Shown piece after piece: positions 2,625 to 49,557 of a stretch of 64,000 nt of DNA (the first letter of the stretch is position 1; the number at the start of each line of letters is the position of its first letter). Source of the stretch: an uncultured bacterium (GTDB lineage: Bacteria; Acidobacteriota; Thermoanaerobaculia; Multivoradales; JAHZIX01); the NCBI GenBank assembly GCA_965368975.1, contig CBDUPA010000002.1, positions 512,001 through 576,000 on the forward strand. Direction: 5' to 3'. A model generated the notes under the pieces. The model saw only the letters and a list, made by a program, of their open reading frames with translations, ran no database searches and was not told where the DNA came from. Made by a program: the position numbers and the translations under genes.

Positions 2625-3385
2625 GCGAGTCGCGGCAGCCTCAGAAGCTCGACGTACTGGCGATCGGCGCGCATCCGGACGATGTCGAGCTCGGCTGCGG
2701 CGGCACGCTCGCCGTGCTGGCACAGCAGGGCAAGAAGGTCGGCATCGTGCACCTGACGCGCGGTGAGCGCGGCACGCGCGGCACACCGGAGGAGCGCGAG
2801 CAGGAAGCAGGACGCGCGGCGGAAGCGCTGGGGGCGGAGGTGCTCGAACTCCTCGACTGCGGCGATGGCAGCCTGCGCACCGGTGAGGCGGAGGAAGACG
2901 CGCTGATCGAGGTGCTGCGACGCTACCGGCCGGAGGTCGTGCTCGGTCCGACGCCGCGTGATCGCCATCCGGATCATGGTCGCGCCCACCAGCTGGTGGA
3001 AGCCGCGGCCTTCTATGCCGGGCTGCGTCGACGCGGGGACGATGGGCTGGAGCCGCACCGGCCGGCGGCGGTGTTCAGCTACATGCAGCACGACCCGTTC
3101 GACGTGCGCTTCGTGGTCGACGTGACCGCCGGCTGGCAGCGCAAGTTGCGCTCGCTGGCTGCCTACGACAGTCAGTTGCACGCCACGGCCTTCGGCTCCG
3201 AGGACGGCAAGACCACCGACGAACCCATGACCAAGGTCGCCACCCCGGAATTCGCCCTCGCCGTCGAGGGACGCGCGCGGCACTTCGGCCAGATGATCGG
3301 CGCCACCTTCGGCGAGCCGTTCACCTGCCGTCTACCTCTGGCGGTCAGCGATGTACTGACCCTAGCACCCGGAGGGGTGCGATGA
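2621..3385 (+). CDS. bshB1: N-acetylglucosaminyl-malate deacetylase BshB1 (PIG-L family)
   Basis: AHPDDVELGCGG, LTRGERGTRG and DRHPDH motifs; ATGA overlap with bshC. Confidence 0.92.
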   Translation: MSESRQPQKLDVLAIGAHPDDVELGCGGTLAVLAQQGKKVGIVHLTRGERGTRGTPEEREQEAGRAAEALGAEVLELLDCGDGSLRTGEAEEDALIEVLRRYRPEVVLGPTPRDRHPDHGRAHQLVEAAAFYAGLRRRGDDGLEPHRPAAVFSYMQHDPFDVRFVVDVTAGWQRKLRSLAAYDSQLHATAFGSEDGKTTDEPMTKVATPEFALAVEGRARHFGQMIGATFGEPFTCRLPLAVSDVLTLAPGGVR

Positions 3386-3480
3386 GCAATACCGCCCTAG
3401 CACCCGGAGGGGTGCGATGAGCAATACCGCCCTGGCACCCGGAGGGGTGCGCTAATTGGACCGTGCACCCCTCCGGGTGC
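3360..3480. repeat. 35-bp direct repeat (2 full copies plus 1 partial) carrying the palindrome GCACCC-GGAG-GGGTGC, followed by an inverted copy; REP/BIME-like
   Basis: Units start at 3360, 3395 and 3430; gcacccctccgggtgc at 3465-3480 is the exact reverse complement of the core. Confidence 0.85.
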
Positions 3481-3500
3481 AACGAGAATATGGAGCGCCC

Positions 3501-4622
3501 ATGAAAATCGGTATCAGTTGTTATCCGAGCTACGGCGGCTCCGGCGTGGTCGCCTCGGAGCTGGCCATGGCCCTCGCGGCCGGCGGCGACGAAGTGCACG
3601 TGATCAGCTATGCGTTGCCGTCGCGGTTGTTCCTCAACGACCCTCGGCTGCACTACCACGAGGTCGTGGTGCCGCACTATCCGCTGTTCGAGTATCCGCC
3701 CTACTCGCTAGCGCTCGCGACCAAGATGGTCGAGGTAGCACGGCACCAAGAGCTGGACCTCATGCACGTGCACTACGCGGTGCCCAACGCCGTCTCGGCC
3801 GTGCTAGCGCGGCAGATGTTGGAGCCGACACGCCACCTGCCGGTGGTGACGACCTTGCACGGCACCGATATCACGCTGGTCGGCAACGACCCCAACTACC
3901 TCGAGACAACTCGCTTCGGCATCCTGCAGAGCAACGGCGTCACCACTGTGTCGCAGGCGCTCAAGGACGGCACCTGTGAGCACCTGGGCATCAGCCGCGA
4001 CATCGACGTAATTCCCAATTTCATCGATCCGCAACGCTTCAGCAAGGTCAAGGCCGAGGGCTTCGGCGCACGCCGCTGGGCAGAGGGTGGCGACCGCCTG
4101 CTGGTGCACATCTCGAACTTCCGGCCGGTCAAGCGTACCGAGGACGTGGTCGAGATTTTCGCCCGCATCCGGCGCGAGGTGCCCTGCCGGCTCTTGATGG
4201 TGGGCGATGGTCCCGAGCGGGCGCGCGTCGAGAAGCTGTGCCGCGACCATAAGATCTGCCACGCCATCACCTTCATGGGCAACCTGCCACTGATCGAGGA
4301 AGTGCTGATCGGGGCGGACCTCTTCCTGCTGCCTTCGGAAAACGAGAGCTTCGGCCTGGCAGCGCTGGAGGCTCTGGCCTGCGGTGTGCCCGTGATCGCC
4401 AGTGATGTCGGTGGCTTGCCGGAAGTGGTGACCGAAGGCGAGAACGGCTTCCTGCGGCCGGTGGGTGATGTCGACGCGATGGCGGAGGCCGGCATTTCCC
4501 TGCTCCAGGACGCCGACCGGCACGCGCGCTTCTGCAGGGCGGCGCGCACCCTGGCGGTAGAGCGCTTCGACCAGGACAAGGTGGTCGACCAGTACCGCGA
4601 GGCATACCGTAAGGTGCTGTGA
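3501..4622 (+). CDS. bshA: N-acetyl-alpha-D-glucosaminyl L-malate synthase BshA (GT4)
   Basis: MKIGISCYPSYGGSGVVASEL, HVHYAVP, TTLHGTDIT, HISNFRPVKR and ESFGLAALEA motifs; ATG 3501 preceded by GGAG. Confidence 0.95.
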   Translation: MKIGISCYPSYGGSGVVASELAMALAAGGDEVHVISYALPSRLFLNDPRLHYHEVVVPHYPLFEYPPYSLALATKMVEVARHQELDLMHVHYAVPNAVSAVLARQMLEPTRHLPVVTTLHGTDITLVGNDPNYLETTRFGILQSNGVTTVSQALKDGTCEHLGISRDIDVIPNFIDPQRFSKVKAEGFGARRWAEGGDRLLVHISNFRPVKRTEDVVEIFARIRREVPCRLLMVGDGPERARVEKLCRDHKICHAITFMGNLPLIEEVLIGADLFLLPSENESFGLAALEALACGVPVIASDVGGLPEVVTEGENGFLRPVGDVDAMAEAGISLLQDADRHARFCRAARTLAVERFDQDKVVDQYREAYRKVL

Positions 4623-37071: not shown

Positions 37072-40000
37072 TCAGCGGCGGCGGCGAACCGTGCGGAACA
37101 GCTTTGCTCGAGCCTCCTGCAGGGCCTCTTCCTGACTGGAAGCTTCCTGAGAGGCTTGCCTCGACGAACCCTCGGCTACCTCTCCAACCTTCGGGGACGG
37201 TGCCGGGGGTTCCGTGCTTTCCAGGCTGTGCGCCAGATCCTCCAGGCGCGGGAGCTCGAAGAGGCGGCGTAGCGGCACCTCGACACCGAAGATCTGCCGG
37301 ATGCGCGAGACCACCTGGGTGGCCAACAAGGAGTGACCGCCAAGACGGAAGAAGTGGTCATCAAGGCCGATCTGCTCGCGCCCCAACACCTCGCTCCAGA
37401 TCCCGGCTAGCTGCCGCTGTGTTTCGGTGCCCGGCGCACGACGCTGCGACCTCGCGCCCACATCCACGGACATGGCGAGCTCGGCGAGAGCCCGGCGGTC
37501 GACCTTGCCGTGCGCATTGACTGGCAGACGCTCCACCACCTGGAAAGCGGACGGCAGCAGTGCCGCCGGCAGGTACTGGCGCAGATAGTCAAGCAGGCTC
37601 TCGGTGTCGAGAGCCGCGCTCGACCCGTCCACCAACTCCACGAACGCGAGCAGCTGGACAGCGGCCCCATCTCGTTGTGCCGGCACTGCCCGCTGCACGT
37701 ACACCGCCGCTTGCCGCACGTGCGAGTATCCCTCGAGCAGGGTCTCGATCTCCCCTGGTTCCAGTCGAATCCCACGCACCTTGACCTGGAAATCACGCCT
37801 GCCGACAAAGGCGAGCGTACCGTCGTGGTGCCAGCGGACCAGGTCTCCCGTGCGGTAGCAGCGCTCACCCGGCACACCATCGACGCCTCCTGGAACACCC
37901 GGCACGAAGGCAACGGCAGTCAAGGCCGGACGGCGGTGGTACCCGCGCGCCAGCGATGCGCCGGAGATACTCAACTCGCCCGGTACGCCGGCGGGCACGG
38001 GCTGGCCGTGCGCGTCGAGCACGTGCAGGCGGCTGCCGGGTACCGGTCGACCGATCGGCGGCAGCTGCGGCCAGTTCTCGACGCTATCGTTCACGGCCAG
38101 AGAATGGCGACTGACCACGTGGCTCTCGGTGGGGCCGTACTGGTTTTCCAGGCGAGCCCTGCCAACACCTGGTCGACCAGCGAACAACACGCGCACCTCC
38201 GGCGTCACGCGCAGTGCTTCACCCGCCGTGTGCACCACGCGCAAGCTCGACGGCATCGCCCCACCGGCTGCCGCCGCCAACGCCAGCTGGCGCAGCAAGA
38301 CCACCGGCACGAACAAGCGCTCGACACCGTAGCGCGCGAGCCAGCTCAGCAAGGCCGGTGGGTCGATGCGAACTTCAGGAACCGGCATCACCAGAGTGCC
38401 TCCGCCCCGGTCTTCAGCTGCATCACTGCAGAGGGTGCTCAGCATTTCCTGTAGCGAGACGTCGAAGGTCGGTGCCGTGAACTGGAGGGTGCGACCGCGA
38501 TCCGTCCGGGCGCCTGCCGACTCAGACGCCGACACTGGCACCGCCGCCAGAGCCTCTCGCTGCCACTGCAGCAGACGCGCCAACGCGGCGTGGGACACAC
38601 ACACACCCTTGGGCTGACCGGTGGATCCCGAGGTGTAGAGCAGATAGGCCCCCTGCTGGGGCAGAATCTCCGTCCGCGGCAGCACCTTCGGACTGGAGGG
38701 CGCCGCACCAGGCTCCACGTCGATGGTACGCCCATCCCAGCGAAGCTGCTCGACGTCCCAGCCCTGGCGGCTCGCGACCTCGAAGAGCTGTGGAGCGTCG
38801 ACCCCGGCGAGCACCACATGCCGCACACCGGCGTCCTGGAGCAAGAAGGCCAGACGTTGCGGCGGGTCGTCCACCGACAGCGGCATGTAGATGCCGCCCG
38901 CGCGCAGCACCGCCAGCAGGGCTACCGCCAGGGCCGGCGAACCTGCCGCGGGCGTCAGCACCGCCACGACCTGCTCAGCAGCCACTCCGGCCGCCCGTAG
39001 TCGCACCGCCAGCTGCCCACTCTCGGCGTCGAGCTGGCGGTAGCTCAGGTGGACATCGGGCCGACCGGCGCTGACTTCGCTAGCTGCGCCCCTGCTCGCA
39101 TGCACCGCGATAGCGTGCGGAGCCTTGGCTGCCACGAGGGCAAATCGCTCCGGTGCGGTCAGCGGAGCTTTCTGACCTTCCAACAACGGCACCGCCCACT
39201 CGCGGAGCAGCTGATGGCGTGCCCCGGGCGCCAGCCAGGGCAGGTCGCCCAACCGCCGCCCCGGCGCCTCGACGATCGCCGCGAGCAGCACCCGGAATTG
39301 CTCGGCGAGGCGACGCATCGTCACCGCGTCGAACAGGTCCGCGGCATACTCCAGACCGCACACCAACCCATCCGACATCTCGGCGAGCGAGCAGTTGAGG
39401 TCGAACTTTGAAGTACCGCTGGAGGTCTGCAGCGGCTGCAGAGTGAGAGCCCCGAGCCTGGACGCCGCAGCTGCGGAAGCCTCGAGCTTGGGCGGGTCCA
39501 GATTCTGCAAAGCGAACAGCACCTGGAACAGCGGCGAACGCGCCAGATCACGCTCCGGCTCCAGCTCCTCAACCAGTTTCTCGAACGGCACGTCCTGGTG
39601 GGCGTAGGCGTCCAGAGCCCGGGCACGCACCCGCGCCAACAGCTCTCGGAAGGTGGGGCCACCGTGAGACGGGGTGTGAGAGTCAGCGTGCAGATCCCCG
39701 CGTAGCACCAGCGTGTTGGCGAAGAAGCCGATCAGCGGCTCCAGCTCGCGCCGACGGCGATTGGCCACGGGCGTACCGACCAGCAGATCCATGCTCCCCG
39801 CCTGCTGAGCGAGACGCGATTCGGGACTCATCCCTGTCTGCCGGCGCAGCAACACGAAGAAGGCTGCCAGCAAGGTGATGAAGAGGGTGCTACCGCTCTG
39901 ACGACCGAGCCGCACCAGGCCGTCGCGCAGATCCGGCGAATAGCGCACGACCACAGACCCGCCACGCAGGCTCTGCACCGCCGGACGAGGCCGGTCGGAA

Positions 40001-43000
40001 GGTAATTCGAGCACCTGCGGCGCCCCGTCGAGCACCTGGCGCCAGTGCGCGATCTCGGCATCCAGCACGGCGCCGCGCAGCCACCGGCGCTGCCAGGCCG
40101 CGAAGTCGCCAACCTGGACGCGCAGGATCGGCAATCTTGCCTCGGTATCGGCGTAGAAGACCGCGATTTCATGGCGCAGCAGACCCAGCGACCAGCCATC
40201 GGCGACGATGTGGTGCACCGTCAGCAAGAGGACGTGCACGTGGCACGACCGGCGCAAAAGGCGAGCTCGCAGCAGCGGCGGCCGGGACAGGTCGAAGGGA
40301 CAGCGTGCCTCACGCGCCAGCAGACGTGCTTGCTCGCTTTCCGCGGCGGCCGGCTCCAGCCTTCCGAGGTCCACGCAGGGCAGCTCGAGCGACAGCTGAT
40401 CAACGGGCTCGATCTGTTGCACCGGCTCGCCGCCGTCTACCAGCACTCGGAAGCCTGTACGCAATGCCTCCTGGCGCGTCACCACCCGGCGCAGCGCCCG
40501 CTCCAGCGCGCGCACGTCGAGAGCACCGTGCAGCTCGAAGGCGGCCGGCATGTTGTACTGCGGGCTCCCCGGGTCGAGCTGGTCGAGCAACCACAACCGC
40601 TGCTGGCCAAACGACAGCGGCGGCGGCTCGACGGGCCGACCGAGTTGCTCGACTCCTGGTACGGCCGGTTCGCGGGGCACAGGTTCCAGTGCAGGCATGG
40701 CAGCACTCAGGGGCTGCTCGCGGCGCTGCAACTGCTCGAGCTGAGCCGCCAGTGCCACGACGGTGGGCGCCTGGAAGAAGGTCGCCAGCGGCACTTCGAT
40801 ACCCAAGGCCTCGCGCAGCCGCGCAATGGCGCGCGTGGCGAGCAGCGAGTGCCCACCGAGGTCGAAGAAGTCGTCCTCCGCCCCCACCCGCAGCTCCGCG
40901 GTACGGTGCAGCACGTCGGAGAAGACATCCGCGATCACGTGCTCCAGCGGACCGCGCGGCGGCACGTACTCGGCTTCCGGCGCACCGGTCTGTGCCTGGT
41001 CAGGTGACGGCAGCTTGCCGAGCGCGATCTTGCCGCTGGCGTGCAAGGGCATCGCGTCGAGGAAGAGGAAGGCCGAGGGCACCATGTACTCTGGCAGCTT
41101 GCTTCCCAGGTGCGCGCGCAGCTCGTCGATCGTCGGCGCGGCTCCACCCGATGGCACCACGTACGCAACCAGGCGCGCATCTCCCGCAGGCTCCTTCGAC
41201 GTCCGGTGCAGCTGCACCAAGGCCCGCCCGACCCGCGCATGCTCGATGAGCGCCGCCTCGATCTCCCCCGGCTCAATGCGCAGGCCGCGCAACTTCACCT
41301 GGTGGTCCAGGCGACCGAGGATCTCCAGCTCGCCTCGGCGATTATGACGGCAGCGATCGCCCGTCCGATACAGCCGCCCACCCCCCTGCGTCAGGCGACC
41401 GTTGGCGACGAACGGGTCCGGAACGAAGCGCTCGGCGGTCAACGAGGGCCGCCCCAGGTAGCCACGACCGACCGCCTCACCGCCGATGCACAGCTCCCCC
41501 GGGATCCCGATCGGCACCCCGCGTCCCCGCGGGTCCAGTACGTGCAGATGGATGTTGGCCATCGGCCAACCCAGGGGCACCGGCGACCTCGACTCGCCCG
41601 GCGGACAGGGCAGACAGACCACCTGCATCGCCGTCTCGGTCGGTCCGCAGACATGGAAGAACTGCGTGTCCGGCAGCGTGCGCTGAAAACGTTGCACCAG
41701 CTCCGTCGGCACCGTCTCGCCGCCGCACCACACCTGGCGCAGGCTGCGACAGGCGCCGCTGTCCGGGTGGTCCAGGTACGGCCACATCATCGACGGCACG
41801 AAGTGCGTCAGCGTCACGGCTTGCTCGCGGATGAGCCTCACCAGGTACCTCGGATCACGATGCCCGCCCGGCCGCGCCAGCACCGTCGTTGCTCCGACCA
41901 TCGGGCCGAGCAGCAGCTCCCACACCGAGACGTCGAAGCTGAAAGCCCCCTTGTGCAGAATGCGGTCGTCGAAGCCGAGCCCGAGGTGCTCGATCTGCCA
42001 CAGCGTGTGGTTGACCGTTGCCCGCTGTGGGTTCATCGCTCCCTTGGGCCTGCCGGTCGAGCCGGAAGTGTAGATGACGAAGGCCAGCGGGTCCGCCTCG
42101 CAGGTCGGCGGCTGAGGCAGGGGCGGCAAGGGAACGAGCGCTCGCCGATCGATGGACTCCGTTGGCGCGCCGCTCGCGTCCAGTTCGATGACGCGCGTCG
42201 ACGTACCCGCGGCACCCGCCTGCAACAAGGACAGATCCGGCCGTGGCACGCCCAACTGGACCGCCGCCGCCGCACTCAGCGTCAGGACCACCGGCGCGTG
42301 CGTATCCTCCAGGATGAACGCCAGCCGCTCCGGCGGATCGTCGGCGTCGAGCGGCACCCAGGCGGCACCCGCCTCGAGCACCGCGCGCACCGCGATGGCC
42401 AGCGCCAAGCTGCGCGGCAACGCAATGCCGACCAGCTGGTCCGTCCCGGTGCCGCACGCTCGCAGCACCCCAGCCAGCACACGTGCCCGTGCGTCCAGTG
42501 CGCCCAGACTGAGGTGCTGACGCCCAAACACCATGGCGACGAAATCCGGCAACTCGGGCACGAAACGCCGGCCGAGATCCTGCATCGTCAGATCCAGCAG
42601 ATCACGGCCTTCCTGGTCGTGGCCTTGCTGGTCGTGGCCCTGCTCGCCGTGGCCCTGCTCGCCGTGGCCCTGCCCATCATGGAAAGCTTCCTCGAATGCC
42701 TCGTTCCACTCCACTTTCAACTGGTGACGCTCGGCAAGCGTCAGCAGGGACAAAGCCCCGAGCGGACAGTCTGGCCGCTTCAGCGCCGCCGTCAGCAGCG
42801 CACCGTAGTGGCGCAGTAGCCGGTCCATGGTCGTGGCGTCGAAGAGTTCGGCACTGTACAGCGCCACCGGCATCAGGTAGACGCCATCCCCGTCCGGCTC
42901 GGGGATCTGCTCGATCGACAGCGTCAAGTCGAAGATCGCCGTCAAGCGGCTACCGTCGAGCGCCTCCAACCGTAGGCCCGGCAAGCGCAAGCCTTCCGCT

Positions 43001-44163
43001 TGGGGTGCATTCTGCACTCCGAAGCTGACCTGGAACAGCGGATTGTGCGCCAGCGCTCGCTCCGGTCGCACCTCCTCGACGATACGGTCGAGCGGCACGT
43101 CCGCGTTTTCCCGGCCAGCCAGCGTGTCGATGCGCACCTGCTCCAGGAGCCGCGCGAAGGGCATGTCTGGTGTCAGGCGGTGGCGCATCACCATCGTGTC
43201 GACGAACAGGCCGATCAGCGCCTCCAGCTCCGGTCGCGGGCGTCCCGACACGCCATAGCCGACCACCAGGTCGCGCTGCCCACTGTGGCGGTAGAGCAGA
43301 ATTGCGTAGAGCGCCATCAGCACCATGAAGTCGGTCACACCGCCACCCAACCGTCGGCAGTGCTCCTGCAAGTCCGCTCCGAGCTGCAACGGCAATGCCA
43401 CCGCCCGTCGCCCGCCGCGGAACGTCGGCCGCACCGGCCGTGGTCGATCGCTGGGCAGGTCGAGGCCATCCGGCGCCCCGTCCAGGTGCCGCGACCAGTA
43501 TTCCAGCTGCCGTCGCCCTCGCTCGCCCTCGACCTGCTTGCGCTGCCAGCGCGCGAAGTCGGCGAACTGCAGTTTGAGTTCCGGCAGTGGCGATGGCTTG
43601 CCGTCGCAGTAGGCGGCATAGAGCACGCCAAGCTCGTGCGTCAGTACCGACATCGACCAGCGGTCGGTGACGATGTGGTGCAGCGTCGCGAACAGCACGT
43701 AGTGATCGCTGGCCATGCGCACCAGCACCACGCGCAGCAGCGGAGGCTCGTCGAGAGCGAAAGGTCGCAGGGTCTCGCGCTTCTGCAGGCGCGCACGCTC
43801 GTCGTCGCGAACCTCTGCCTGAAGACCACTGACGTCCAGTACCGGTACCGGTGGCAGAGCGGGCGGAATCGGCAGCTGCAACGGATCGCCGTCCACCTCC
43901 ACCAACGCCGTGCGCAAGACCTGGTGCCGTCGCAAGATCTCCCCGATCACCCGCTGCAGCACGTCGATGCGCAGCTTGCCGTGCAACCCGAGCACCGCAC
44001 AGCCGTTGTAGAAGTGGCTGTCGCCGTGCAGACGGTCGAGGAACCAGAGTCGCTGCTGGGCAAAGGCCAGCGGATTGCGCTTGGCGAGAAGGCGTCGCTT
44101 CTCCGGCGACAGCGCGTTCAGACGATCGGCGAGCTTCGGCGTAGCTTTGGACACGCGCGGCAT
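37072..44163 (-). CDS. Bimodular NRPS, C-A-T-C-A-T, no TE
   Basis: C1 HHIVTDRWS, A1 YTSGSTGRPKG, T1 GGHSLL, C2 HHIVADGWS, A2 YTSGSTGQPKG, T2 GGHSLL; start ATG 44163 or GTG 44154. Confidence 0.93.
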   Translation of the reverse strand: MPRVSKATPKLADRLNALSPEKRRLLAKRNPLAFAQQRLWFLDRLHGDSHFYNGCAVLGLHGKLRIDVLQRVIGEILRRHQVLRTALVEVDGDPLQLPIPPALPPVPVLDVSGLQAEVRDDERARLQKRETLRPFALDEPPLLRVVLVRMASDHYVLFATLHHIVTDRWSMSVLTHELGVLYAAYCDGKPSPLPELKLQFADFARWQRKQVEGERGRRQLEYWSRHLDGAPDGLDLPSDRPRPVRPTFRGGRRAVALPLQLGADLQEHCRRLGGGVTDFMVLMALYAILLYRHSGQRDLVVGYGVSGRPRPELEALIGLFVDTMVMRHRLTPDMPFARLLEQVRIDTLAGRENADVPLDRIVEEVRPERALAHNPLFQVSFGVQNAPQAEGLRLPGLRLEALDGSRLTAIFDLTLSIEQIPEPDGDGVYLMPVALYSAELFDATTMDRLLRHYGALLTAALKRPDCPLGALSLLTLAERHQLKVEWNEAFEEAFHDGQGHGEQGHGEQGHDQQGHDQEGRDLLDLTMQDLGRRFVPELPDFVAMVFGRQHLSLGALDARARVLAGVLRACGTGTDQLVGIALPRSLALAIAVRAVLEAGAAWVPLDADDPPERLAFILEDTHAPVVLTLSAAAAVQLGVPRPDLSLLQAGAAGTSTRVIELDASGAPTESIDRRALVPLPPLPQPPTCEADPLAFVIYTSGSTGRPKGAMNPQRATVNHTLWQIEHLGLGFDDRILHKGAFSFDVSVWELLLGPMVGATTVLARPGGHRDPRYLVRLIREQAVTLTHFVPSMMWPYLDHPDSGACRSLRQVWCGGETVPTELVQRFQRTLPDTQFFHVCGPTETAMQVVCLPCPPGESRSPVPLGWPMANIHLHVLDPRGRGVPIGIPGELCIGGEAVGRGYLGRPSLTAERFVPDPFVANGRLTQGGGRLYRTGDRCRHNRRGELEILGRLDHQVKLRGLRIEPGEIEAALIEHARVGRALVQLHRTSKEPAGDARLVAYVVPSGGAAPTIDELRAHLGSKLPEYMVPSAFLFLDAMPLHASGKIALGKLPSPDQAQTGAPEAEYVPPRGPLEHVIADVFSDVLHRTAELRVGAEDDFFDLGGHSLLATRAIARLREALGIEVPLATFFQAPTVVALAAQLEQLQRREQPLSAAMPALEPVPREPAVPGVEQLGRPVEPPPLSFGQQRLWLLDQLDPGSPQYNMPAAFELHGALDVRALERALRRVVTRQEALRTGFRVLVDGGEPVQQIEPVDQLSLELPCVDLGRLEPAAAESEQARLLAREARCPFDLSRPPLLRARLLRRSCHVHVLLLTVHHIVADGWSLGLLRHEIAVFYADTEARLPILRVQVGDFAAWQRRWLRGAVLDAEIAHWRQVLDGAPQVLELPSDRPRPAVQSLRGGSVVVRYSPDLRDGLVRLGRQSGSTLFITLLAAFFVLLRRQTGMSPESRLAQQAGSMDLLVGTPVANRRRRELEPLIGFFANTLVLRGDLHADSHTPSHGGPTFRELLARVRARALDAYAHQDVPFEKLVEELEPERDLARSPLFQVLFALQNLDPPKLEASAAAASRLGALTLQPLQTSSGTSKFDLNCSLAEMSDGLVCGLEYAADLFDAVTMRRLAEQFRVLLAAIVEAPGRRLGDLPWLAPGARHQLLREWAVPLLEGQKAPLTAPERFALVAAKAPHAIAVHASRGAASEVSAGRPDVHLSYRQLDAESGQLAVRLRAAGVAAEQVVAVLTPAAGSPALAVALLAVLRAGGIYMPLSVDDPPQRLAFLLQDAGVRHVVLAGVDAPQLFEVASRQGWDVEQLRWDGRTIDVEPGAAPSSPKVLPRTEILPQQGAYLLYTSGSTGQPKGVCVSHAALARLLQWQREALAAVPVSASESAGARTDRGRTLQFTAPTFDVSLQEMLSTLCSDAAEDRGGGTLVMPVPEVRIDPPALLSWLARYGVERLFVPVVLLRQLALAAAAGGAMPSSLRVVHTAGEALRVTPEVRVLFAGRPGVGRARLENQYGPTESHVVSRHSLAVNDSVENWPQLPPIGRPVPGSRLHVLDAHGQPVPAGVPGELSISGASLARGYHRRPALTAVAFVPGVPGGVDGVPGERCYRTGDLVRWHHDGTLAFVGRRDFQVKVRGIRLEPGEIETLLEGYSHVRQAAVYVQRAVPAQRDGAAVQLLAFVELVDGSSAALDTESLLDYLRQYLPAALLPSAFQVVERLPVNAHGKVDRRALAELAMSVDVGARSQRRAPGTETQRQLAGIWSEVLGREQIGLDDHFFRLGGHSLLATQVVSRIRQIFGVEVPLRRLFELPRLEDLAHSLESTEPPAPSPKVGEVAEGSSRQASQEASSQEEALQEARAKLFRTVRRRR

Positions 44164-44397
44164 TTTAGTCCGACTTCGCCACAGCGCCACGACGAACCGT
44201 CCAACTTCGTGTTCCCGCAGTTGCGCGGAACTTTCTTTGGCTGGCATCTTCGAGGCAAGCGCCAGTACCTTGCTAGCGGACACCAGGACCCCGCCAGAAG
44301 ACTCCAGAGCCCTGCTAGAGTCGTCCCCGCAGATCGACGTCGTCCCCGCAAGAGACTACCGTCCGGACCCGCAACCGCCGCACCAGGAGACTTCCCC

Positions 44398-46020: not shown

Positions 46021-46740
46021 CTACCGCTCAGGCTCCGTGTCTTCGAGAAGGCGCACGATCTCTGCCTCCACGACGGCAAGGTCGATCTTCCCCGACCACT
46101 GTCCGACGATCTGGCCTTGTGCGTCGATCAGGTATTGCGTCGGCACCACCTTCACCCGGTACGAGGACCAGGCGGACGCCTCGGTCGCGTCGAGGAAGAC
46201 GGGGTGCTTGGCTCGACGCTCTTCGACCATCGCTTCGACCTTCGCTGCGGCGTCGTCCCCCTCATCGATCGACACGCTGAGAACCACGAGGCCATCTTCC
46301 TGGTAGCGCTCGTGGAGACGCGTCAGGTCCGGCAGATCCTTGACGCAGGGCGGGCACCAGGTGGCCCAGAAGTCGAGCAGCACGACTTTGCCGCGGAAAC
46401 TCTCGAATTCGACCTCGGTGCCCTCTAGATCGAGCACGGTGAACGCTGGAGCTGGCCGTGGCAATACCGGTGGTAGGTAGCTCTCGGGGTCTTCGAGGAA
46501 GCGCTCACTACAAGCGGGGGAGCAGAACCCGTAGATCTGGCCCTGGTACTCGGCCGTCGCTCGCACGCGCTCTTGCCGCGTTTCGCCTTCATGGACACGG
46601 CAGACGTGGCAGATGGCCTTCTCACCCATCGTGACGTCGTCGCTCGGGGAGTCTTCCGCTGCGACGGCGCTCAGGGAGAACGCAGTGCCCACGAGGAGCC
46701 AGGCGAGCAAGGTGTAGCGGAGGGAGTTTGCGGCCTTCAT
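46021..46740 (-). CDS. Exported YHS/TRASH domain + TlpA-like thioredoxin (redoxin) fusion
   Basis: Signal peptide; CHVC..YQGQIYGFCSPAC..FLEDPESY; APAF..DLEG..GKVVLLDFWATWCPPC..VPT.YLID; GAGG RBS before ATG 46740. Confidence 0.87.
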   Translation of the reverse strand: MKAANSLRYTLLAWLLVGTAFSLSAVAAEDSPSDDVTMGEKAICHVCRVHEGETRQERVRATAEYQGQIYGFCSPACSERFLEDPESYLPPVLPRPAPAFTVLDLEGTEVEFESFRGKVVLLDFWATWCPPCVKDLPDLTRLHERYQEDGLVVLSVSIDEGDDAAAKVEAMVEERRAKHPVFLDATEASAWSSYRVKVVPTQYLIDAQGQIVGQWSGKIDLAVVEAEIVRLLEDTEPER

Positions 46741-46757: not shown

Positions 46758-47573
46758 TCAGAACGTCGTCGAGATGGCGACGCCGACGCGTTCGAGCCAA
46801 ACCCAGATGAGGGAGGCACCGAAGCGCTGGCCCGCGTAGTTGAGCATCAGGTGAGTGCGCTGGCCGTCGTACATGGGGCGCAGGGAGAAGCGCTCGTCGA
46901 GTTCGACTTCGACCCCGAAGGGGAAGTTGATGTCTTTGTCCCATTCCGAGTAGTTCAGGCTCACGTAGGCGGACACCGGCCAGCTGGGATGATGCTTGGC
47001 GGCCGTCAGGTAGTACGACTGCTCGCCGGCGGGAGAGCCAATACGATCGGAACTCGTACCCAAGAACAGTGCTGGCCGCCGCTCATCCTCGGTCTGGAGA
47101 AACCAGGTGAGGAGCGGGCCGATCTCGTCCGCCTCTGGGTTGACCTCGACCCCGATCTGCAACTGCGGCAGGATGCGGTAGGAAAGGGTCGAGCGCCACC
47201 TCGGTCGATCGAGGTCGGTGTCGACGAAGCGCAGAGACGCGCTGAATTTTGTGTCCAAGCCACTCCCCCGGAGCGGCGCCCCTTCACCGGGTCAACCACT
47301 TCACGTAGGGGCCGCCGACGGTCGCGATGGCGGCGCGGGCGGCGCCTCGGCGGGGTCCGTGGAAGCCTCGGTCGGCGCGGCCTCGGTATCGGTGCCGGTC
47401 TGGACACCCGTATCCGTCAAAGCTTCCGTATCGGTCTCACTCCCGGCATCCGCCTGGCTGCCCACATCGACCTGGGCCCCCCTGTCCACCTGGGCGAGAC
47501 CTGGCATCGCCAGTAACGCCAGGAGCAGACACAACAGAAAGGGCGCAGGCGCTTTGACTTGGCTCACCATCAT
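46758..47573 (-). CDS. Candidate selenoprotein (271 aa): signal peptide, acidic/Pro linker, U-S-G-U, small outer-membrane beta-barrel ending in Phe
   Basis: Track ORFs 47301..47609 and 46758..47258 are in the same frame, separated only by TGA(47303-01)-AGT-GGT-TGA(47294-92) and 11 sense codons. Confidence 0.7.
47259..47277 (-). promoter_or_regulatory. Putative bacterial SECIS hairpin
   Basis: GCCGCUCC-GGG-GGAGUGGC: 8-bp stem with one G-U pair and a G-rich apical loop, starting 14 nt after the second UGA. Confidence 0.6.
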
Positions 47574-47622: not shown

Positions 47623-49553
47623 CTACCGTCCTTGCCCCCCGACCACCGTCCGCACCACCAGCTTCTCCCGCTTCACCCGCACCTCGATCTTGCCCCGCTG
47701 CTCTTCGGTCAACAGCTCTTCCGTGGTGAAGCTCAACCGATACTGGCTGCGCAGCTCGCGCTCGATCCGCTTGTAGGCATCCCCGAGCAAGTGCGGCTCG
47801 GAGACCAAGAACACCCGGCCGCCAGTCTCTTCCGTCAACTCCTCTAGATCACTCACCGCTAGAGTCCGGCGGATCTGCCGCTCTTCTCCGAGCACGATCA
47901 GGTACACCGGAACACCCGCCGTGCGTGCATCGCGGATGGCGCGATTGGGACTGAAGCGGCTGCGGTAATCGTCACCGTCCGTCAGCACGACCAGTGCCTT
48001 GCGGCCGGGGTCAGCACCAAACTGGATCAGGGAGAAGACGACCGAGTCGTAGAGCGCAGTGGCGCCGCCGGGTTGTAGACGGCGGAAGCTCGAGAGCAAT
48101 TCACGCAGATCGTTGCTGGTGTCGTGCAGGAGCCGCGGCTGGGAGTCGAAGTCGACGAGGAAGGCTTGGTCTTCGGCTTCCAGGACGGTGCCGAGGAACT
48201 GCCCCGCGGCTTGCTTGGTCTCCAGCATCTGGTTTTCCATCGAGCCGGAGGAGTCGATGACCAAACCGAGCAAGAGCGAAACGTCGTCGGCGTAGCTGAA
48301 GCTCTGCACCTCGACGGGCTTGCCGTCGAGACGGACGGTGAAGTCTTCCTGCTGCAAGCCGCGCACAGGCTCGCCGCGTTGGTTGGTGGCAACGACGAAG
48401 AGTTCGACGAGGTTGACTTCGAGGCGCTCGGTGACGCCGCGAGCGCTCAGGAGAACGACGTCTTCACTGCTGGTGCCATCCGCCAAGAAGGCGGCGACGC
48501 GGAGATAGTCGGTGGGGCCGGGATCGACGGTGGGGACTTCGAGTTCCAAGCTCTGCCCCTCGGCACCATCGAGGCGACGGATCAGCGTCTCGTTGCGGTA
48601 CACCTCGACGCGTTCGAGCTGCTGCCCGGATGGCACGTTGACCGTGGCGGCTAGCTCGACGGAGCCGGTGGCGGGATCGCCGTCCAGGCGCGTGATACGG
48701 ACACGGAAGGGGATGTTGCTGCGATTGACGACCAGTTCGTCGCTGCCCAGGTCGTAGTCCAGACGGTCGTAGGCGACGGCGCGAACGGTCTGCTCGCGCG
48801 GTGGGCTGGCCAGCGGCACACGGCCGCGGAACGGGGCGCGGGTGTCTTCGTCGACTTGCTGACCGTCGAGGAGGAACACGACGCGCTCGACTTCGTCGGT
48901 GGCGACCAGGGCGTCGATAGAGGTGCTGCCGCTGACGGGTTCTCTGGCCGGCGGCACGAGGCGAACTGCGGAGCGCTTTGTCTGCGAGGCTGGGCCGGAC
49001 TGACGGCTACCCGCGGACGGAGACGATGCGGATGCGGCGGCGAAGGAACTCAGGGGGGCGCCTTCGGTGATGGCCGCGGACGCCGGCACGGCCAGCAGAT
49101 CGGATCCGACCTCGACGGGACTACCACCCCAAATCTCGCCGGCACCCCAGGTCTCGCCGTTGGTGACCACGGCGAGTAGGTCGCGCACGGAGGCTGGCAC
49201 TTCGAGGGGGATCAGGGTCACCCACACGCGCGTTCCTGCGGGCGGTGCGTCGAGGGGCTGGCGCAGCACCAGCGGCTCGGCGCGTTCGGCACTGCCGACG
49301 GCGACTTCGAGTTGAAGGCCAGCCTCCGGGGTCAGTGGGTCGCTGTCCTCCAGCCAGACGATCACCTGCAACACACAGCGTAGACGGCCCGCGGCCTGCG
49401 CTTCCGGCGGTGCCAGGACACAGGCGGCTTCGACTTCCAGGCCGCCGTTGGAGGGCCCACCGGCAAGGAGTCGCTGCAACGGAGACTCTTGCGCCGAAGA
49501 CGCTATCGGCAGAAAGAGCAGGAGGCACGCAAGCGTCCAGGCAGTGCGCATGC

Positions 49554-49557
<4 letters not shown>
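47623..49557 (-). CDS. Exported Ig-like + VWA domain protein (Acidobacterial VWFA-related type)
   Basis: Signal peptide; [20 protein letters not shown]; DSSGSM MIDAS; TALYD; LTDG; ETGG; LRSQY. Confidence 0.87.

What the first reader, a model, noticed from the sequence alone, without database searches (positions are those of the whole stretch)
46758..47573. Hidden double-selenocysteine (U-S-G-U) outer-membrane protein split into two ORFs by the gene caller
Seen in sequence: on the - strand, a signal-peptide ORF (MMVSQVKAPAPFLLCLLLALLAMPGLAQ...) runs through an acidic/Pro linker to ...CCT ACG TGA AGT GGT TGA CCC GGT GAA GGG GCG... It continues in the same frame, with no other stop, into a domain of alternating beta-strands ending GVAISTTF. 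Both interruptions are TGA, spaced exactly like a CxxC redox or metal motif. A GCCGCUCC-GGG-GGAGUGGC hairpin begins 14 nt after the second UGA. The downstream half alone has only a TTG start and no signal peptide, although it looks like an outer-membrane barrel. Established: bacterial Sec insertion needs an in-frame UGA plus a SECIS hairpin immediately 3' with a G in the apical loop, and a C-terminal Phe is the BAM signal. Inference: this is one 271-aa exported barrel with a UxxU (diselenide-capable) motif, possibly with one SECIS serving both UGAs. I do not recognise it as a described selenoprotein family.
Basis: partly seen in the sequence, partly recalled or inferred. Interest (0 to 1): 0.92.

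Follow-up and report, generated by a model that had tools for sequence, protein, structure and literature searches.

The report
Double-selenocysteine outer-membrane barrel protein
One gene, wrongly split in two by gene callers, encodes a secreted outer-membrane barrel protein with two selenocysteines close together, and it belongs to a widespread family that seems never to have been described.

Summary
On the - strand, 47573..46761 is one 271-codon frame: signal peptide, linker, PT-U-SG-U-PGEG (TGA at 47303-47301 and 47294-47292), then a domain ending in Phe.

Homology searches that did not presuppose TGA found 7 of 7 (relatives) and 29 of 29 (phylum) homologues spanning the motif with exactly 2 in-frame TGAs. 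A TGA-specific DNA pattern then pulled 117 true members out of 120 hits, in several phyla.

A hairpin 14 nt after UGA2 meets all four constraints of the published bacterial SECIS model for both UGAs and shows strong covariation. Cys-Cys homologues align at both Sec columns and lack the hairpin. One U-x-x-C relative has it. The genome holds tRNA-Sec, SelA, SelB and SelD.

AlphaFold2 predicts a 12-stranded barrel (pLDDT >90) that resembles FapF, KdgM and NanC. A TlpA-like thioredoxin is fused in frame (72 loci) or adjacent (26) in at least 98 of 148 distinct loci. Here it is the next gene, joined to a YHS/TRASH metal-binding domain.

Pfam, NCBIfam and the 2026 selenoprotein catalogue hold no such family. 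A role in periplasmic soft-metal or redox handling at an outer-membrane channel is inferred, not shown.

The parts
46758..47573 (-). Whole selenoprotein gene: 271 codons plus a terminal TGA at 46760-46758. Gene callers split it into a 5' ORF (47573..47304) and a 3' ORF (TTG at 47258..46758).
   Evidence: Homologues read through in one frame.
47490..47573 (-). Signal peptide, residues 1-28 (MMVSQVKAPAPFLLCLLLALLAMPGLAQ). Judged by eye as Sec/SPase I type. No lipobox.
   Evidence: AlphaFold2 predicts a helix at residues 10-22. 35 of the 37 homologous loci gave a start codon followed by a hydrophobic N-terminal stretch by the rule, and the rule picked implausible starts in some. No signal-peptide predictor was available.
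47325..47489 (-). Variable acidic/Thr/Pro-rich linker, residues 29-83. In other lineages this position holds a TlpA-like thioredoxin domain, a YHS-like domain and/or a His-rich tract.
   Evidence: pLDDT below 50 for residues 28-54.
47259..47324 (-). Conserved block RPSAAPT-U-SG-U-PGEGAPLRGSG, residues 84-105. S, P, U, U, P, G, E, G and G are invariant in 29 of 29 aligned sequences.
   Evidence: (alignment A3).
47301..47303 (-). UGA1, read as Sec91.
   Evidence: TGA at this column in all 37 homology-found loci. Cys in Cys-form homologues.
47292..47294 (-). UGA2, read as Sec94.
   Evidence: As for UGA1. Cys at this column in L178, a UxxC form.
47259..47277 (-). SECIS-type hairpin: 8-bp stem GCCGCUCC/GGAGUGGC with a GGG triloop. 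It starts 14 nt after UGA2 and 23 nt after UGA1. The apical loop lies 22 and 31 nt from the two UGAs. It encodes part of APLRGSG.
   Evidence: -13.0 kcal/mol. Covariation. Model constraints quoted from PMC13188914, section 5.
46761..47246 (-). C-terminal domain, residues 110-271: predicted 12-stranded antiparallel beta-barrel ending in Phe.
   Evidence: AlphaFold2, with 10-residue-block mean pLDDT 86-95 from residue 111 on. Foldseek matches to FapF, KdgM, NanC and designed 12-stranded barrels. Last residue F in 118 of 132 loci.
46021..46740 (-). Partner gene, 17 nt downstream: signal peptide + CxxC...CxxxC YHS/TRASH-type domain + TlpA/ResA-like thioredoxin domain (WATWCPPC). Probably co-transcribed.
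   Evidence: Pfam and NCBIfam: AhpC-TSA 9e-23, YHS 6e-10, ResA 4e-29, TlpA 4e-19. Conserved adjacency or fusion.

Best explanation
The window holds one gene, 47573..46758 on the - strand, for a secreted selenoprotein with two selenocysteines in a U-x-x-U motif (Sec91, Sec94).

How it is made. Both UGAs are recoded by SelB/Sec-tRNA(Sec), directed by a single SECIS hairpin (47277-47259) that lies within reach of both codons. This step is inferred from sequence, not shown biochemically.

Where it goes. The mature protein is a flexible periplasmic N-terminal arm that carries the selenol pair. About 15 residues later comes a 12-stranded outer-membrane beta-barrel ending in the usual C-terminal Phe.

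What it works with. The arm works with a periplasmic TlpA-like thiol:disulfide reductase and a YHS/TRASH Cys4 metal-binding domain. Here these are encoded by the next gene (46740..46021). In most other lineages they are fused in frame upstream of the motif, often with a His-rich tract.

Most likely mechanism (inferred). The thioredoxin domain keeps the U-x-x-U pair reduced. The selenolate pair then acts as a high-affinity soft-metal site (copper-like), or as a redox-active site, at the periplasmic mouth of the barrel, handing its cargo to or from the channel. The direction of transport and the identity of the cargo are unknown.

The confidence given here is for the core claim: one gene, Sec decoding by the hairpin, a barrel, and the link to the reductase. 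The metal-handling role alone I put at about 0.45.
For: SHOWN BY COMPUTATION

1. Conserved TGAs. A protein search with stops read through found 7 of 60 related genomes with a homologue, all 7 with '2 TGA'. Among 400 genomes of the phylum, all 29 listed matches that span the motif have '2 TGA', at 32-44% identity. All 37 loci carry [VA]P[STNA]-U-x-x-U-PGEG.

2. One frame. In all 8 loci of the window's clade an in-frame ATG and a hydrophobic signal peptide lie upstream. In distant clades the upstream frame is a thioredoxin domain (AhpC-TSA 1e-21 to 1e-27), even in genomes of 42-48% G+C.

3. TGA is otherwise a stop. The gene's own terminator is TGA in 69 of 132 complete loci.

4. SECIS. The hairpin meets all four constraints of the published model (3-nt loop, 8 bp, G-G in the loop, 22 and 31 nt spacing, -13.0 kcal/mol). 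On 141 unselected unique sequences 78.1% of cells pair against 62.4% in shuffles (0 of 500 reach it). There are 151 double-sided changes against 58 (0 of 500). The covariation score is 0.378 against 0.161, and slid controls reach at most 0.222. The 36-sequence set gives the same picture. The paired changes alter amino acids in a coupled way (AVRGTA / AIRGIA / PLRGSG / GVRGTS).

5. Natural controls. Seven Cys-Cys loci (TGT/TGC) pair at only 3-6 of 8 positions in that register. L178, the one U-x-x-C locus of the same subfamily, pairs at 8 of 8 with a GUG loop.

6. Cys homologues align at both Sec columns.

7. Sec machinery is present in the genome. All 30 gene-bearing genomes of the phylum sample have SelA, against a background of 309 of 401.

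8. Barrel. AlphaFold2 gives block-mean pLDDT of 86-95 from residue 111 on, with about 12 strands. Foldseek finds FapF (E 3.5e-5), KdgM (TM 0.62 on the target, rmsd 4.3), NanC, designed 12-stranded barrels and PcoB.

9. Partner. A thioredoxin motif is fused in 72 and adjacent in 26 of 148 distinct loci, which is a lower bound. The partner is the top recurrent neighbour, in 30 loci. It also follows a Cys form.

10. Metal theme.
- YHS/TRASH domains appear in the partner, in L026, and two or three times in Cys forms (E to 5e-18).
- His-rich tracts precede the motif (at least 4 His in the last 45 residues in 16 of 148 loci).
- A CusA/CzcA pump and a His-rich lipoprotein lie directly upstream in L081.
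- A CDF-like neighbour occurs in 9 loci, but the match is below cut-off.
- A CYCXC (seleno)protein neighbour occurs in 5 loci.
Against: - No experiment: selenium incorporation, full-length product, localisation and cargo are all untested.
- The local fold of the window's 76 nt is no more stable than shuffles (z = 0.16).
- Rfam found nothing in the window at gathering thresholds.
- The covariation shuffle control ignores relatedness, so '0 of 500' is not a probability. The hairpin also overlaps conserved codons.
- About a third of members (51 of 141 unique sequences) do not fit hairpin variant A and use other hairpins. Structure B on the full set is weaker: 65.8% paired against 58.9%, and 3 pairs with double changes, no better than shuffles (499 of 500 reach it).
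- Two successive UGA decodings on one SECIS have no experimental precedent that I could find. No precedent turned up in the listing (titles and abstract starts only) or in sections 5 and 7 of the 2026 review.
- SelA is so common in the phylum (77%) that co-occurrence discriminates weakly.
- The metal reading rests on domain names whose roles are themselves mostly predicted. The CDF-like hit is below cut-off, and the CusA context is a single locus.
- 20 loci with full flanks, mostly Poribacteria, Planctomycetota and Verrucomicrobiales, show no thioredoxin motif nearby.
- The model gives no coordinates to me, so the position of the U-x-x-U arm relative to the barrel is unknown.
Confidence: 0.85

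Rival explanations
1. The TGAs are true stops. On this reading there are two separate genes (a small secreted peptide and a leaderless barrel ORF starting at TTG 47258), or a decayed pseudogene.
For: Under table 11 the ORF list shows exactly that split. Public protein collections hold almost only the 151-173-aa C-terminal ORFs. Long open frames arise easily in G+C-rich DNA.
Against: - The same two TGAs in the same columns are conserved across about 150 assemblies and several phyla, with strong in-frame protein conservation on both sides.
- The upstream frame is a real thioredoxin domain in 72 loci.
- The TTG position is start-like in only 5 of 148 loci.
- A barrel without a signal peptide could not reach the outer membrane (established knowledge of Sec/BAM export).
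- Never TAA or TAG at these columns.
- Cys forms are uninterrupted.
Confidence: 0.02
2. The UGAs are read through, but not as selenocysteine. This could be near-cognate suppression (Trp, Cys or Arg) or a lineage-wide reassignment of TGA.
For: Two database proteins show W at both positions (P0069, P0088) and one shows C-x-x-W (P0146). These could be real TGG codons or code-4 gene calls, and I could not see their DNA.
Against: - TGA terminates this very gene in 69 of 132 loci, so there is no reassignment.
- The hairpin that covaries and meets the SECIS model is present where there is a TGA and absent from Cys-Cys forms.
- Complete Sec machinery is present.
- Cys, not Trp, is the residue in uninterrupted homologues.
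Confidence: 0.04
3. Same selenoprotein, different job. The U-x-x-U arm is a redox relay or a redox-gated plug rather than a metal site. It would take electrons from the tethered TlpA-like domain and either pass them through the barrel to a substrate at the cell surface, or open and close the channel by diselenide formation.
For: - The most constant partner is a thiol:disulfide reductase.
- U-x-x-U is a diselenide-capable redox motif in the Prx-like/SelL family (catalogue).
- The best structural match, FapF, is a plugged 12-stranded transporter (the plug is recalled from the FapF literature, not from a call).
- The arm has moderate pLDDT (70-77) despite having no secondary structure.
Against: - No redox substrate or cofactor gene recurs in the neighbourhood.
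- YHS/TRASH, His-rich tracts, and the CusA, CDF-like and Cys-rich neighbours point to metals.
- The two readings are not exclusive, since metal sites of this kind need reduction.
Confidence: 0.25
4. Same selenoprotein, acting in chalcogen traffic. The selenol pair would carry selenium or sulfur species (selenide, persulfide, polysulfide) to or from the outer-membrane channel.
For: Selenols react readily with such species (general chemistry). A CYCXC (seleno)protein is a neighbour in 5 loci.
Against: No sulfur or selenium metabolism genes recur beside it. No rhodanese, DsrE or SelD-linked genes were seen in the loci read. This is entirely speculative.
Confidence: 0.07

Closest known systems
Prx-like thiol:disulfide oxidoreductase / SelL-type selenoproteins (UxxC, UxxU; PF00578)
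   Same: Two Sec residues in a U-x-x-U motif able to form a diselenide. A bacterial SECIS lies inside the coding sequence. The system is associated with a thioredoxin-fold domain.
   Different: There the U-x-x-U replaces the CxxC inside the thioredoxin fold. Here the thioredoxin domain keeps CxxC (WATWCxPC), and the U-x-x-U lies outside any known domain, about 15 residues before a beta-barrel. The NCBIfam SelL-related model touches only the thioredoxin part and stays far below cut-off.
TlpA with its ScoI/CoxB substrates (periplasmic reductase that keeps copper-site cysteines reduced)
   Same: A periplasmic TlpA/ResA-like reductase is genetically tied to a Cys/Sec pair that probably binds metal. 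The partner hits TlpA and ResA models.
   Different: The scores are below the equivalog cut-offs, so it is TlpA-like, not TlpA. The presumed substrate is an arm of an outer-membrane barrel, not Sco or cytochrome oxidase. The TlpA-Sco biology is recalled, not taken from a call.
PcoB/CopB outer-membrane copper proteins
   Same: A small outer-membrane barrel preceded by a disordered, metal-ligand-rich N-terminal region. PcoB (7pge) is among the Foldseek matches.
   Different: The structural match is weak (E 1.1e-2, TM 0.31-0.39). No Pfam match to any family was found at E up to 1. The ligands here are Sec and His rather than Met and His. The description of the PcoB N-terminus is recalled.
FapF, KdgM and NanC 12-stranded outer-membrane barrels
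   Same: Predicted strand number and size. Best Foldseek matches (FapF E 3.5e-5; KdgM TM 0.62 on the target, rmsd 4.3).
   Different: 9-14% identity and no sequence-family match. None of these is a selenoprotein or carries a CxxC arm.
Outer-membrane selenoproteins already catalogued: GSU2204/MtrB-PioB family (NF041027) and FCYXU-type TonB-dependent receptor (NF049945)
   Same: They show that outer-membrane barrel selenoproteins exist (catalogue table).
   Different: They have one Sec each, and are much larger barrels of other families. Neither model matched in the NCBIfam scan at E up to 1.
UxxU metal-binding selenoprotein (putative mercuric reductase type, NF041115) and MbdU (NF045648)
   Same: Two Sec residues are proposed as soft-metal ligands (catalogue table).
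   Different: No match to either model. The fold and the cellular location differ.

Membership tests
Bacterial selenoprotein (Sec-UGA plus bSECIS) | In-frame UGA conserved among homologues, with coding conservation on both sides | tested here: met
   7 of 7 and 29 of 29 motif-spanning homologues have 2 TGAs. Invariant flanking residues.
Bacterial selenoprotein (Sec-UGA plus bSECIS) | Downstream hairpin meeting the bSECIS model: 3-9 nt loop, 4-16 bp stem, G in the first two loop positions, 16-37 nt from the UGA, MFE -7.5 kcal/mol or lower | tested here: met
   Loop GGG, 8 bp, 22 nt (UGA2) and 31 nt (UGA1), -13.0 kcal/mol. Covariation. bSECISearch itself was not available.
Bacterial selenoprotein (Sec-UGA plus bSECIS) | Sec machinery in the same genome (selA, selB, selC, selD) | tested here: met
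Bacterial selenoprotein (Sec-UGA plus bSECIS) | Homologues with Cys aligned to Sec | tested here: met
   CxxC forms P0175, P0176, P0182, P0183, P0196, P0201, P0208, P0179 and P0129. DNA of 7 Cys-Cys loci and one UxxC locus.
Bacterial selenoprotein (Sec-UGA plus bSECIS) | Selenium actually incorporated (75Se label or mass spectrometry) | not testable with these tools
   No experiment was possible. No RNA run holder was listed (this is not evidence either way).
SelL / Prx-like UxxU thiol:disulfide oxidoreductase | U-x-x-U at the active-site position of a thioredoxin/peroxiredoxin fold | tested here: not met
   The thioredoxin domains of fused forms and of the partner keep WCxPC. The U-x-x-U lies 100 or more residues downstream, outside the domain.
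Known UxxU or double-Sec NCBIfam families (NF041115, TIGR02605, NF045648, NF045694) | Match to the family model at or above its cut-off | tested here: not met
   The NCBIfam scan of the read-through protein gave 0 families at E up to 1. Fused forms hit only thioredoxin-type models. TsoB reached E 4e-3 at 15 bits against a cut-off of 805.
Outer-membrane beta-barrel protein | N-terminal signal peptide | tested here: inconclusive
   A basic residue, a hydrophobic core and GLA-Q are seen by eye, and comparable N-termini occur in homologues. No signal-peptide predictor was available.
Outer-membrane beta-barrel protein | Even number of antiparallel membrane-spanning strands closing a barrel | tested here: met
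   About 12 strands, with block-mean pLDDT 86-95 from residue 111 on. The top Foldseek matches are all outer-membrane barrels. This is a prediction, not a structure.
Outer-membrane beta-barrel protein | C-terminal aromatic residue (BAM signal) | tested here: met
   Phe in the window. F in 118, W in 5 and Y in 1 of 132 loci.
KdgM/NanC porins, FapF, CopB/PcoB (sequence families) | Match to the Pfam family model | tested here: not met
   No Pfam family matched the barrel half at E up to 1. Foldseek identities are 9-14%.
TlpA/ResA thiol:disulfide reductase (partner gene 46740..46021) | Thioredoxin fold with WCxxC and a match to the TlpA/ResA models at cut-off | tested here: inconclusive
   The Pfam domains are well above cut-off (AhpC-TSA 81 bits, Redoxin 67.6). 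NCBIfam ResA at 101.8 bits and TlpA at 69.2 bits are below their cut-offs of 170 and 230. It is TlpA-like, not an equivalog.

The most novel reading that the evidence does not exclude
This would be a selenium-gated, two-products-from-one-gene outer-membrane metal channel.

One SECIS decodes two UGAs 9 nt apart. When selenium is scarce, translation ends at UGA1. In the fused forms that releases a free periplasmic TlpA/His-rich protein. When selenium is available, the same mRNA yields that module tethered through a diselenide/selenolate U-x-x-U gate to a 12-stranded outer-membrane barrel.

The selenolate pair would be the selectivity and gating site for a soft metal such as Cu(I) crossing the outer membrane. 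That would make this the first selenium-dependent outer-membrane transport system, and it would be widespread in soil and sediment Acidobacteriota and several other phyla.
Probability: 0.15. Interest if true: 0.9.

Novelty: new variant of a known kind. Interest (0 to 1): 0.8.

Why it matters
If confirmed, this adds a widespread selenoprotein family that standard annotation misses entirely. The Atlas cluster nearest the truncated barrel ORF holds 1,183 proteins of about 160 aa with no common Pfam family. The profile search found 316 representatives.

It would be a rare bacterial case of two Sec residues decoded from one SECIS. That makes it a natural system for asking how SelB reloads on a hairpin within three codons.

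It would place selenium chemistry at the outer membrane and periplasm of Acidobacteriota and other environmental phyla, linked to thiol-redox and probably metal homeostasis.

The Sec-Sec, Sec-Cys and Cys-Cys forms, with the hairpin present or absent to match, give a ready-made comparative series for experiments. Practically, the motif and hairpin can be used to correct gene models in thousands of genomes and MAGs.

Tried and rejected
- Rfam at gathering thresholds on the whole window found no match. Bacterial SECIS elements are poorly covered, so this was not weighed.
- ARAGORN on the window found no tRNA.
- Shuffle test of the local fold gave z = 0.16, so the hairpin's stability alone is no evidence.
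- Pfam 'New_glue' on the linker (E 0.004-0.04, below cut-off) was rejected as low-complexity noise.
- The search for related loci on genome contigs with alignment A3 found nothing, because the tool back-translated Cys codons where the genomes have TGA. It was replaced by the permitted second scan with a DNA pattern.
- My first neighbour script missed known partners, because stop-to-stop frames overlap the gene. It was redone by motif position. That rule still misses at least L022 and relies on a regular expression, so its counts are lower bounds.
- L176 and L177 are frameshifted and the motif was not found, so both were dropped.
- Dropped before counts:
  - L039 (unpublished genome G108) from alignments A1, A2, A3, A5 and.
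  - L023, L029, L032, L037, L047, L049, L050 from A2 and A3, for doubtful starts or ends.
  - Three chance pattern hits (L097, L153, L168).
  - Duplicates, collapsed to 148 distinct loci, 141 unique 51-mers or 145 unique 60-mers.
- The look-up of sequencing runs: no RNA holder was listed, and no run holds more than 0.12 of the sampled words.
- Not run:
  - Complex prediction, because the read-through chain is not a table-11 protein and a transient enzyme-substrate contact is a poor case for it.
  - The second structure prediction.
  - The viral fold library.
- The model's coordinates are not readable in the Python box, so the position of the arm could not be examined.
- The supplementary family tables of BSepDB and deep-Sep are closed. 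They might list a family that I could not see.
- Unpublished genomes:
  - G108 (L039) was read and is one of the 29 and of the 37.
  - G083 and G209 enter only the SelA tally.
Full report
WHAT IS IN THE SEQUENCE

On the - strand an ATG at 47573 opens a frame that runs to a TGA at 46760-46758. It is interrupted only by two TGAs, at 47303-47301 (codon 91) and 47294-47292 (codon 94). Read through, it gives 271 residues:
- a signal-peptide-like N-terminus;
- an acidic/Thr/Pro linker;
- RPSAAPT-U-SG-U-PGEGAPLRGSG;
- about 165 residues ending in ...GVAISTTF.

The hairpin GCCGCUCC-GGG-GGAGUGGC is at 47277-47259, 14 nt after UGA2. On its own this would not be convincing. The DNA is about 64% G+C, and the 76-nt stretch folds no better than its shuffles (z = 0.16).

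THE GENOME CAN MAKE SELENOPROTEINS

The assembly is 7.1 Mb in 59 contigs and 99.3% complete. It holds:
- a tRNA-Sec (73.2 bits against a cut-off of 47; ARAGORN calls it SeC, anticodon tca);
- SelA (343 bits);
- a 730-aa frame with the SelB winged-helix domain (67 bits);
- SelD (344 bits), itself with one in-frame TGA.

A neighbouring VWA protein hits the model acidobact_VWFA, and named relatives are Acidobacteriota.

THE COMPARATIVE TEST

A protein search of whole genomes, with stops read through and counted, made no assumption about TGA.
- Among 60 relatives, 7 genomes in 3 families have a homologue (67-78% identity), and all 7 have '2 TGA'.
- Among 400 genomes spread over the phylum, 31 besides the window's own have a match. 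All 29 listed matches that span the motif have '2 TGA', at 32-44% identity.
- The remaining rows are one split copy in a 73%-complete genome, whose motif-bearing half also has 2 TGAs, and two weak N-terminal-only matches.

In all 37 loci the motif reads [VA]P[STNA]-U-x-x-U-PGEG. Neither position ever holds Cys, TAA or TAG. In an alignment of 29 sequences the invariant residues are S, P, U, U, P, G, E and G around the motif, a series of R, E, N, D, K, Y and H residues, a GTSSDRIGTPxG block in the C-domain, and the terminal F.

IT IS ONE GENE

In the window's clade each of the 8 loci has an in-frame ATG and a hydrophobic leader upstream.

In the other clades the upstream frame is long and real. 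It holds a TlpA/ResA-like thioredoxin domain (AhpC-TSA E 1e-21 to 3e-27; FWATWCxPC). This is often preceded by a Cys-rich domain without a Pfam match and followed by a His-rich tract, all in frame with the motif and the C-domain. The frame stays open even in genomes of 42% and 48% G+C, where open frames of 380 codons do not arise by chance. A third architecture has a YHS-like N-domain (L026, E 4e-4 and below cut-off).

The codon aligned with the window's TTG 'start' is start-like in 5 of 148 distinct loci. That explains why public collections hold C-terminal fragments of varying length (151-173 aa). The gene's own stop is TGA in 69 of 132 complete loci. These organisms therefore read TGA as stop, and the internal TGAs need a local signal.

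THE LOCAL SIGNAL

The published consensus model of bacterial SECIS elements asks for a 3-9-nt apical loop, a 4-16-bp stem, a G (usually G-G or G-U) in the first two loop positions, 16-37 nt between UGA and loop, and an MFE of -7.5 kcal/mol or lower (PMC13188914; I read section 5 and its figure legend). The window's hairpin has a GGG loop, 8 bp, -13.0 kcal/mol, and its loop is 22 nt from UGA2 and 31 nt from UGA1. Both codons fall in the window, and 6 nt between them leave no room for a second element.

Across 145 unique 60-mers the same register holds an 8-bp stem with a G(G/U)G loop in 94, with 60 distinct stem versions. Most of the other 51 use one of two alternatives that start 10 nt after UGA2:
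- a 3+3-bp stem around a G-G mismatch with a CGUGA loop, with compensatory GCC/GGC, GUC/GAC, GCG/CGC and GAG/CUC versions;
- a 7-bp stem with a GGUCU-type loop.

Formal counts on all 141 unique 51-mers, not pre-selected, are below.

| Measure | Observed | Shuffled mean | Shuffles reaching it |
|---|---|---|---|
| Cells paired | 78.1% | 62.4% | 0 of 500 |
| Cells changed on both sides | 151 | 58 | 0 of 500 |
| Covariation score | 0.378 | 0.161 | 0 of 500 |

Six of 8 pairs show double changes, and the slid controls reach at most 0.222. The first set of 36 gave 90.3% against 75.2% and 0.398 against 0.141. RNAalifold recovered the inner 5 pairs.

Structure B on the full set is weaker: 65.8% against 58.9% paired, and its count of pairs with double changes does not exceed shuffles. 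The shuffle control ignores relatedness, so these are not probabilities. The slid controls, which keep relatedness, agree. The paired changes force coupled amino-acid changes (AVRGTA, AIRGIA, AVRGMA, PLRGSG, GVRGTS), which is what selection on the RNA rather than on the protein would produce.

NATURAL CONTROLS

A profile of the motif plus C-domain was run against 1.84 billion representatives. It found 316 proteins at E up to 1e-3, most of them truncated C-terminal ORFs. Among the few that span the motif as uninterrupted proteins:
- eight carry ...PT-C-AG-C-AGEAR... and one carries SLVPS-C-AL-C-PSP, aligned exactly at the two Sec columns;
- four of them have two or three YHS domains at the N-terminus (E 2e-12 to 5e-18 for the three scanned);
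- others lack Cys and Sec altogether (P0134, P0162) or have unrelated N-termini.

DNA for the Cys subfamily came from a metagenome scan. Seven loci have TGT or TGC at both positions and pair at only 3-6 of 8 positions in the hairpin register. One locus, L178, reads APT-U-AG-C-AGEAR (TGA then TGT) and has a perfect 8-bp hairpin with a GUG loop in exactly that register. Hairpin presence thus tracks TGA within one subfamily.

P0069 and P0088 show W-x-x-W, and P0146 shows C-x-x-W. I take these for TGA read as Trp by a gene caller, but I could not see the DNA.

SPREAD

Of these, 117 match an HMM of alignment A3 and 3 are chance.

Record titles name many Acidobacteriota (Pyrinomonadaceae, Blastocatellia, Bryobacterales, Thermoanaerobaculia, Chloracidobacterium, Polarisedimenticolia). 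They also name MAGs labelled Poribacteria, Latescibacterota, Eisenbacteria, Krumholzibacteriia, Gemmatimonadota, Planctomycetota, Verrucomicrobiales and Armatimonadota families, and a few labelled Clostridia, Heliobacteriaceae or Thiotrichales, whose labels I did not check. This pattern presupposes TGA, so it says nothing about the ratio of Sec to Cys forms.

All 30 gene-bearing genomes of the phylum sample have SelA, against 309 of 401 overall. That is consistent but weakly discriminating.

FOLD

AlphaFold2 with a 63-row alignment gives mean pLDDT 79.5 and pTM 0.70. From residue 111 on, the 10-residue-block means are 86-95, and the model shows about 12 consecutive strands. The arm around the motif scores 70-77 without secondary structure.

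Foldseek against the PDB returns only outer-membrane barrels at the top: FapF (E 3.5e-5), designed 10- and 12-stranded barrels, KdgM (TM 0.62 on the target, rmsd 4.3 over 183 columns), NanC, OmpG and PcoB. Identity is 9-14%, and neither Pfam nor NCBIfam matches. This is a fold-level resemblance, not family membership.

The last residue is F in 118 of 132 loci. The ESM Atlas places the table-11 ORF beside a 1,183-member, mostly acidobacterial cluster of about 160-aa proteins without a common Pfam family.

PARTNERS AND LIKELY FUNCTION

The next gene in the window (46740..46021, a 17-nt gap) encodes a signal peptide, a CxxC...CxxxC YHS/TRASH-type domain (YHS 6e-10) and a TlpA/ResA-like thioredoxin domain.

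The same gene follows the barrel gene in the window's clade and precedes it in the L022, L024, L026 and L027 clade. A thioredoxin domain is fused in 72 loci and adjacent in 26 of 148 distinct loci. That leaves 30 loci with cut flanks and 20 with full flanks but no such motif, mostly outside the Acidobacteriota (a regular-expression rule, so a lower bound). Unsupervised clustering of flanking ORFs ranks this partner first, in 30 loci. A TlpA-like gene also follows a Cys form (L171).

Further recurrent or striking neighbours:
- a CDF-like membrane protein abutting the gene in 9 loci (Cation_efflux E 2.5e-4, below cut-off);
- a CYCXC-family (seleno)protein in 5 loci (103 bits against a cut-off of 90);
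- small secreted Cys-rich ORFs without a family;
- in one Verrucomicrobiaceae MAG, a CusA/CzcA heavy-metal pump (756 bits against a cut-off of 701) and a His-rich lipoprotein directly upstream.

From the topology of outer-membrane barrels (N-terminus in the periplasm; established knowledge), the U-x-x-U pair should sit at the periplasmic mouth of the barrel, within reach of the tethered or co-expressed reductase.

I therefore read the system as a selenolate (or, in Cys forms, thiolate) soft-metal or redox site that serves an outer-membrane channel and is kept reduced by the TlpA-like domain. The gene structure, the recoding signal, the fold class and the partnership are supported by computation. 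The metal, the direction and the gating are inference.

COMPARISON WITH WHAT IS KNOWN

I read the catalogue table of the 2026 review of prokaryotic selenoproteins (PMC13188914, section 7, passages and part 2).
- It lists U-x-x-U only for the Prx-like/SelL type, a metal-binding 'putative mercuric reductase' type (NF041115) and an FmdB-family protein (TIGR02605).
- It lists outer-membrane barrels only for the GSU2204/MtrB-PioB family and an FCYXU TonB receptor.
- None of these matches here.

The 2022 review (PMC9312934, passages), BSepDB (PMC13326102, passages) and deep-Sep (PMC12013277, passages) do not mention such a family in their main texts, and their supplements are closed. Full-text searches found nothing else: 'selenoprotein, UxxU, bacteria'; 'selenoproteins, Acidobacteria, selenocysteine, SECIS'; 'SECIS, two UGA codons, SelB, bacterial'; 'selenocysteine, outer membrane, beta-barrel, selenoprotein family'; and 'selenoprotein, YHS domain, TlpA'.

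VERDICT

This is a real and apparently undescribed double-selenocysteine protein family, mis-annotated everywhere as a short hypothetical protein.
- Confidence in the gene model and in Sec decoding: about 0.9.
- Confidence in the outer-membrane barrel: about 0.8.
- Confidence in the functional link to the TlpA-like reductase: about 0.8.
- Confidence in a metal-handling role: about 0.45.

Noticed in passing
window 46021-46740 (-): The partner protein has a full CxxC...CxxxC TRASH-type signature (ICHVC ... FCSPAC) ahead of a TlpA-like thioredoxin domain. This YHS + thioredoxin architecture with a signal peptide recurs beside the barrel gene in two clades.
   Followed up: partly
L028, L033, L034, L036, L038, L041, L043-L045 (N-terminal ~130 residues of the fused forms): A conserved Cys-rich N-terminal domain (GQVVCxxCWxEADR...YG.A.D..CA..C) precedes the thioredoxin domain. 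It has no Pfam or NCBIfam match and may be a further metal- or redox-active module.
   Followed up: partly
L178:2528 (metagenome locus): A U-x-x-C member (TGA then TGT) of the otherwise Cys-Cys 'AGEAR' subfamily, with a perfect SECIS-type hairpin. It looks like an evolutionary intermediate between the Cys and Sec forms.
   Followed up: partly
P0069, P0088, P0146 (database proteins): These were called as uninterrupted proteins with W at the Sec positions (W-x-x-W, C-x-x-W). The likely cause is gene callers that used a TGA=Trp code on short contigs. Their DNA was not seen.
   Followed up: no
L081 oriented 476-4201 (Verrucomicrobiaceae MAG): A CusA/CzcA heavy-metal RND pump (TIGR00914, 756 bits) and a His-rich lipoprotein lie directly upstream of the U-x-x-U barrel gene, and an ion-transport protein lies downstream. 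This is a single locus.
   Followed up: partly
L069, L077, L117, L127, L160 (upstream neighbours): A CYCXC-family (seleno)protein (NF041379, PF13798 PCYCGC) lies upstream of the barrel gene in 5 Pyrinomonadaceae-type loci. It belongs to another catalogued selenoprotein family of unknown function.
   Followed up: partly
L029, L064, L077, L100, L144, L148, L161 (abutting neighbours): A CDF-like membrane protein abuts the barrel gene, mostly with gaps of 3-4 nt. The match to Cation_efflux/CDF is weak and below cut-off.
   Followed up: partly
G000:C6:48351-49277 (same genome, other contig): The genome's SelD carries one in-frame TGA, so the organism has at least one other selenoprotein.
   Followed up: no
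window 37072-44283 (-): A 2,403-aa ORF with non-ribosomal peptide synthetase motifs (condensation, adenylation and carrier domains, judged by eye) lies a few kb downstream. It is probably unrelated to the finding.
   Followed up: no
window 47623-49557 (-): The upstream neighbour is a secreted VWA + Big_7 protein that matches the acidobacterial VWFA model (TIGR03436, 162 bits). I did not check whether this neighbour is conserved in other loci.
   Followed up: no
L022, L024, L026 (TGA CCC GGC TGA CCC GGC): In one clade the motif is a perfect tandem repeat of the 9-nt unit encoding U-P-G. This suggests that the second Sec arose by duplication of the first.
   Followed up: no
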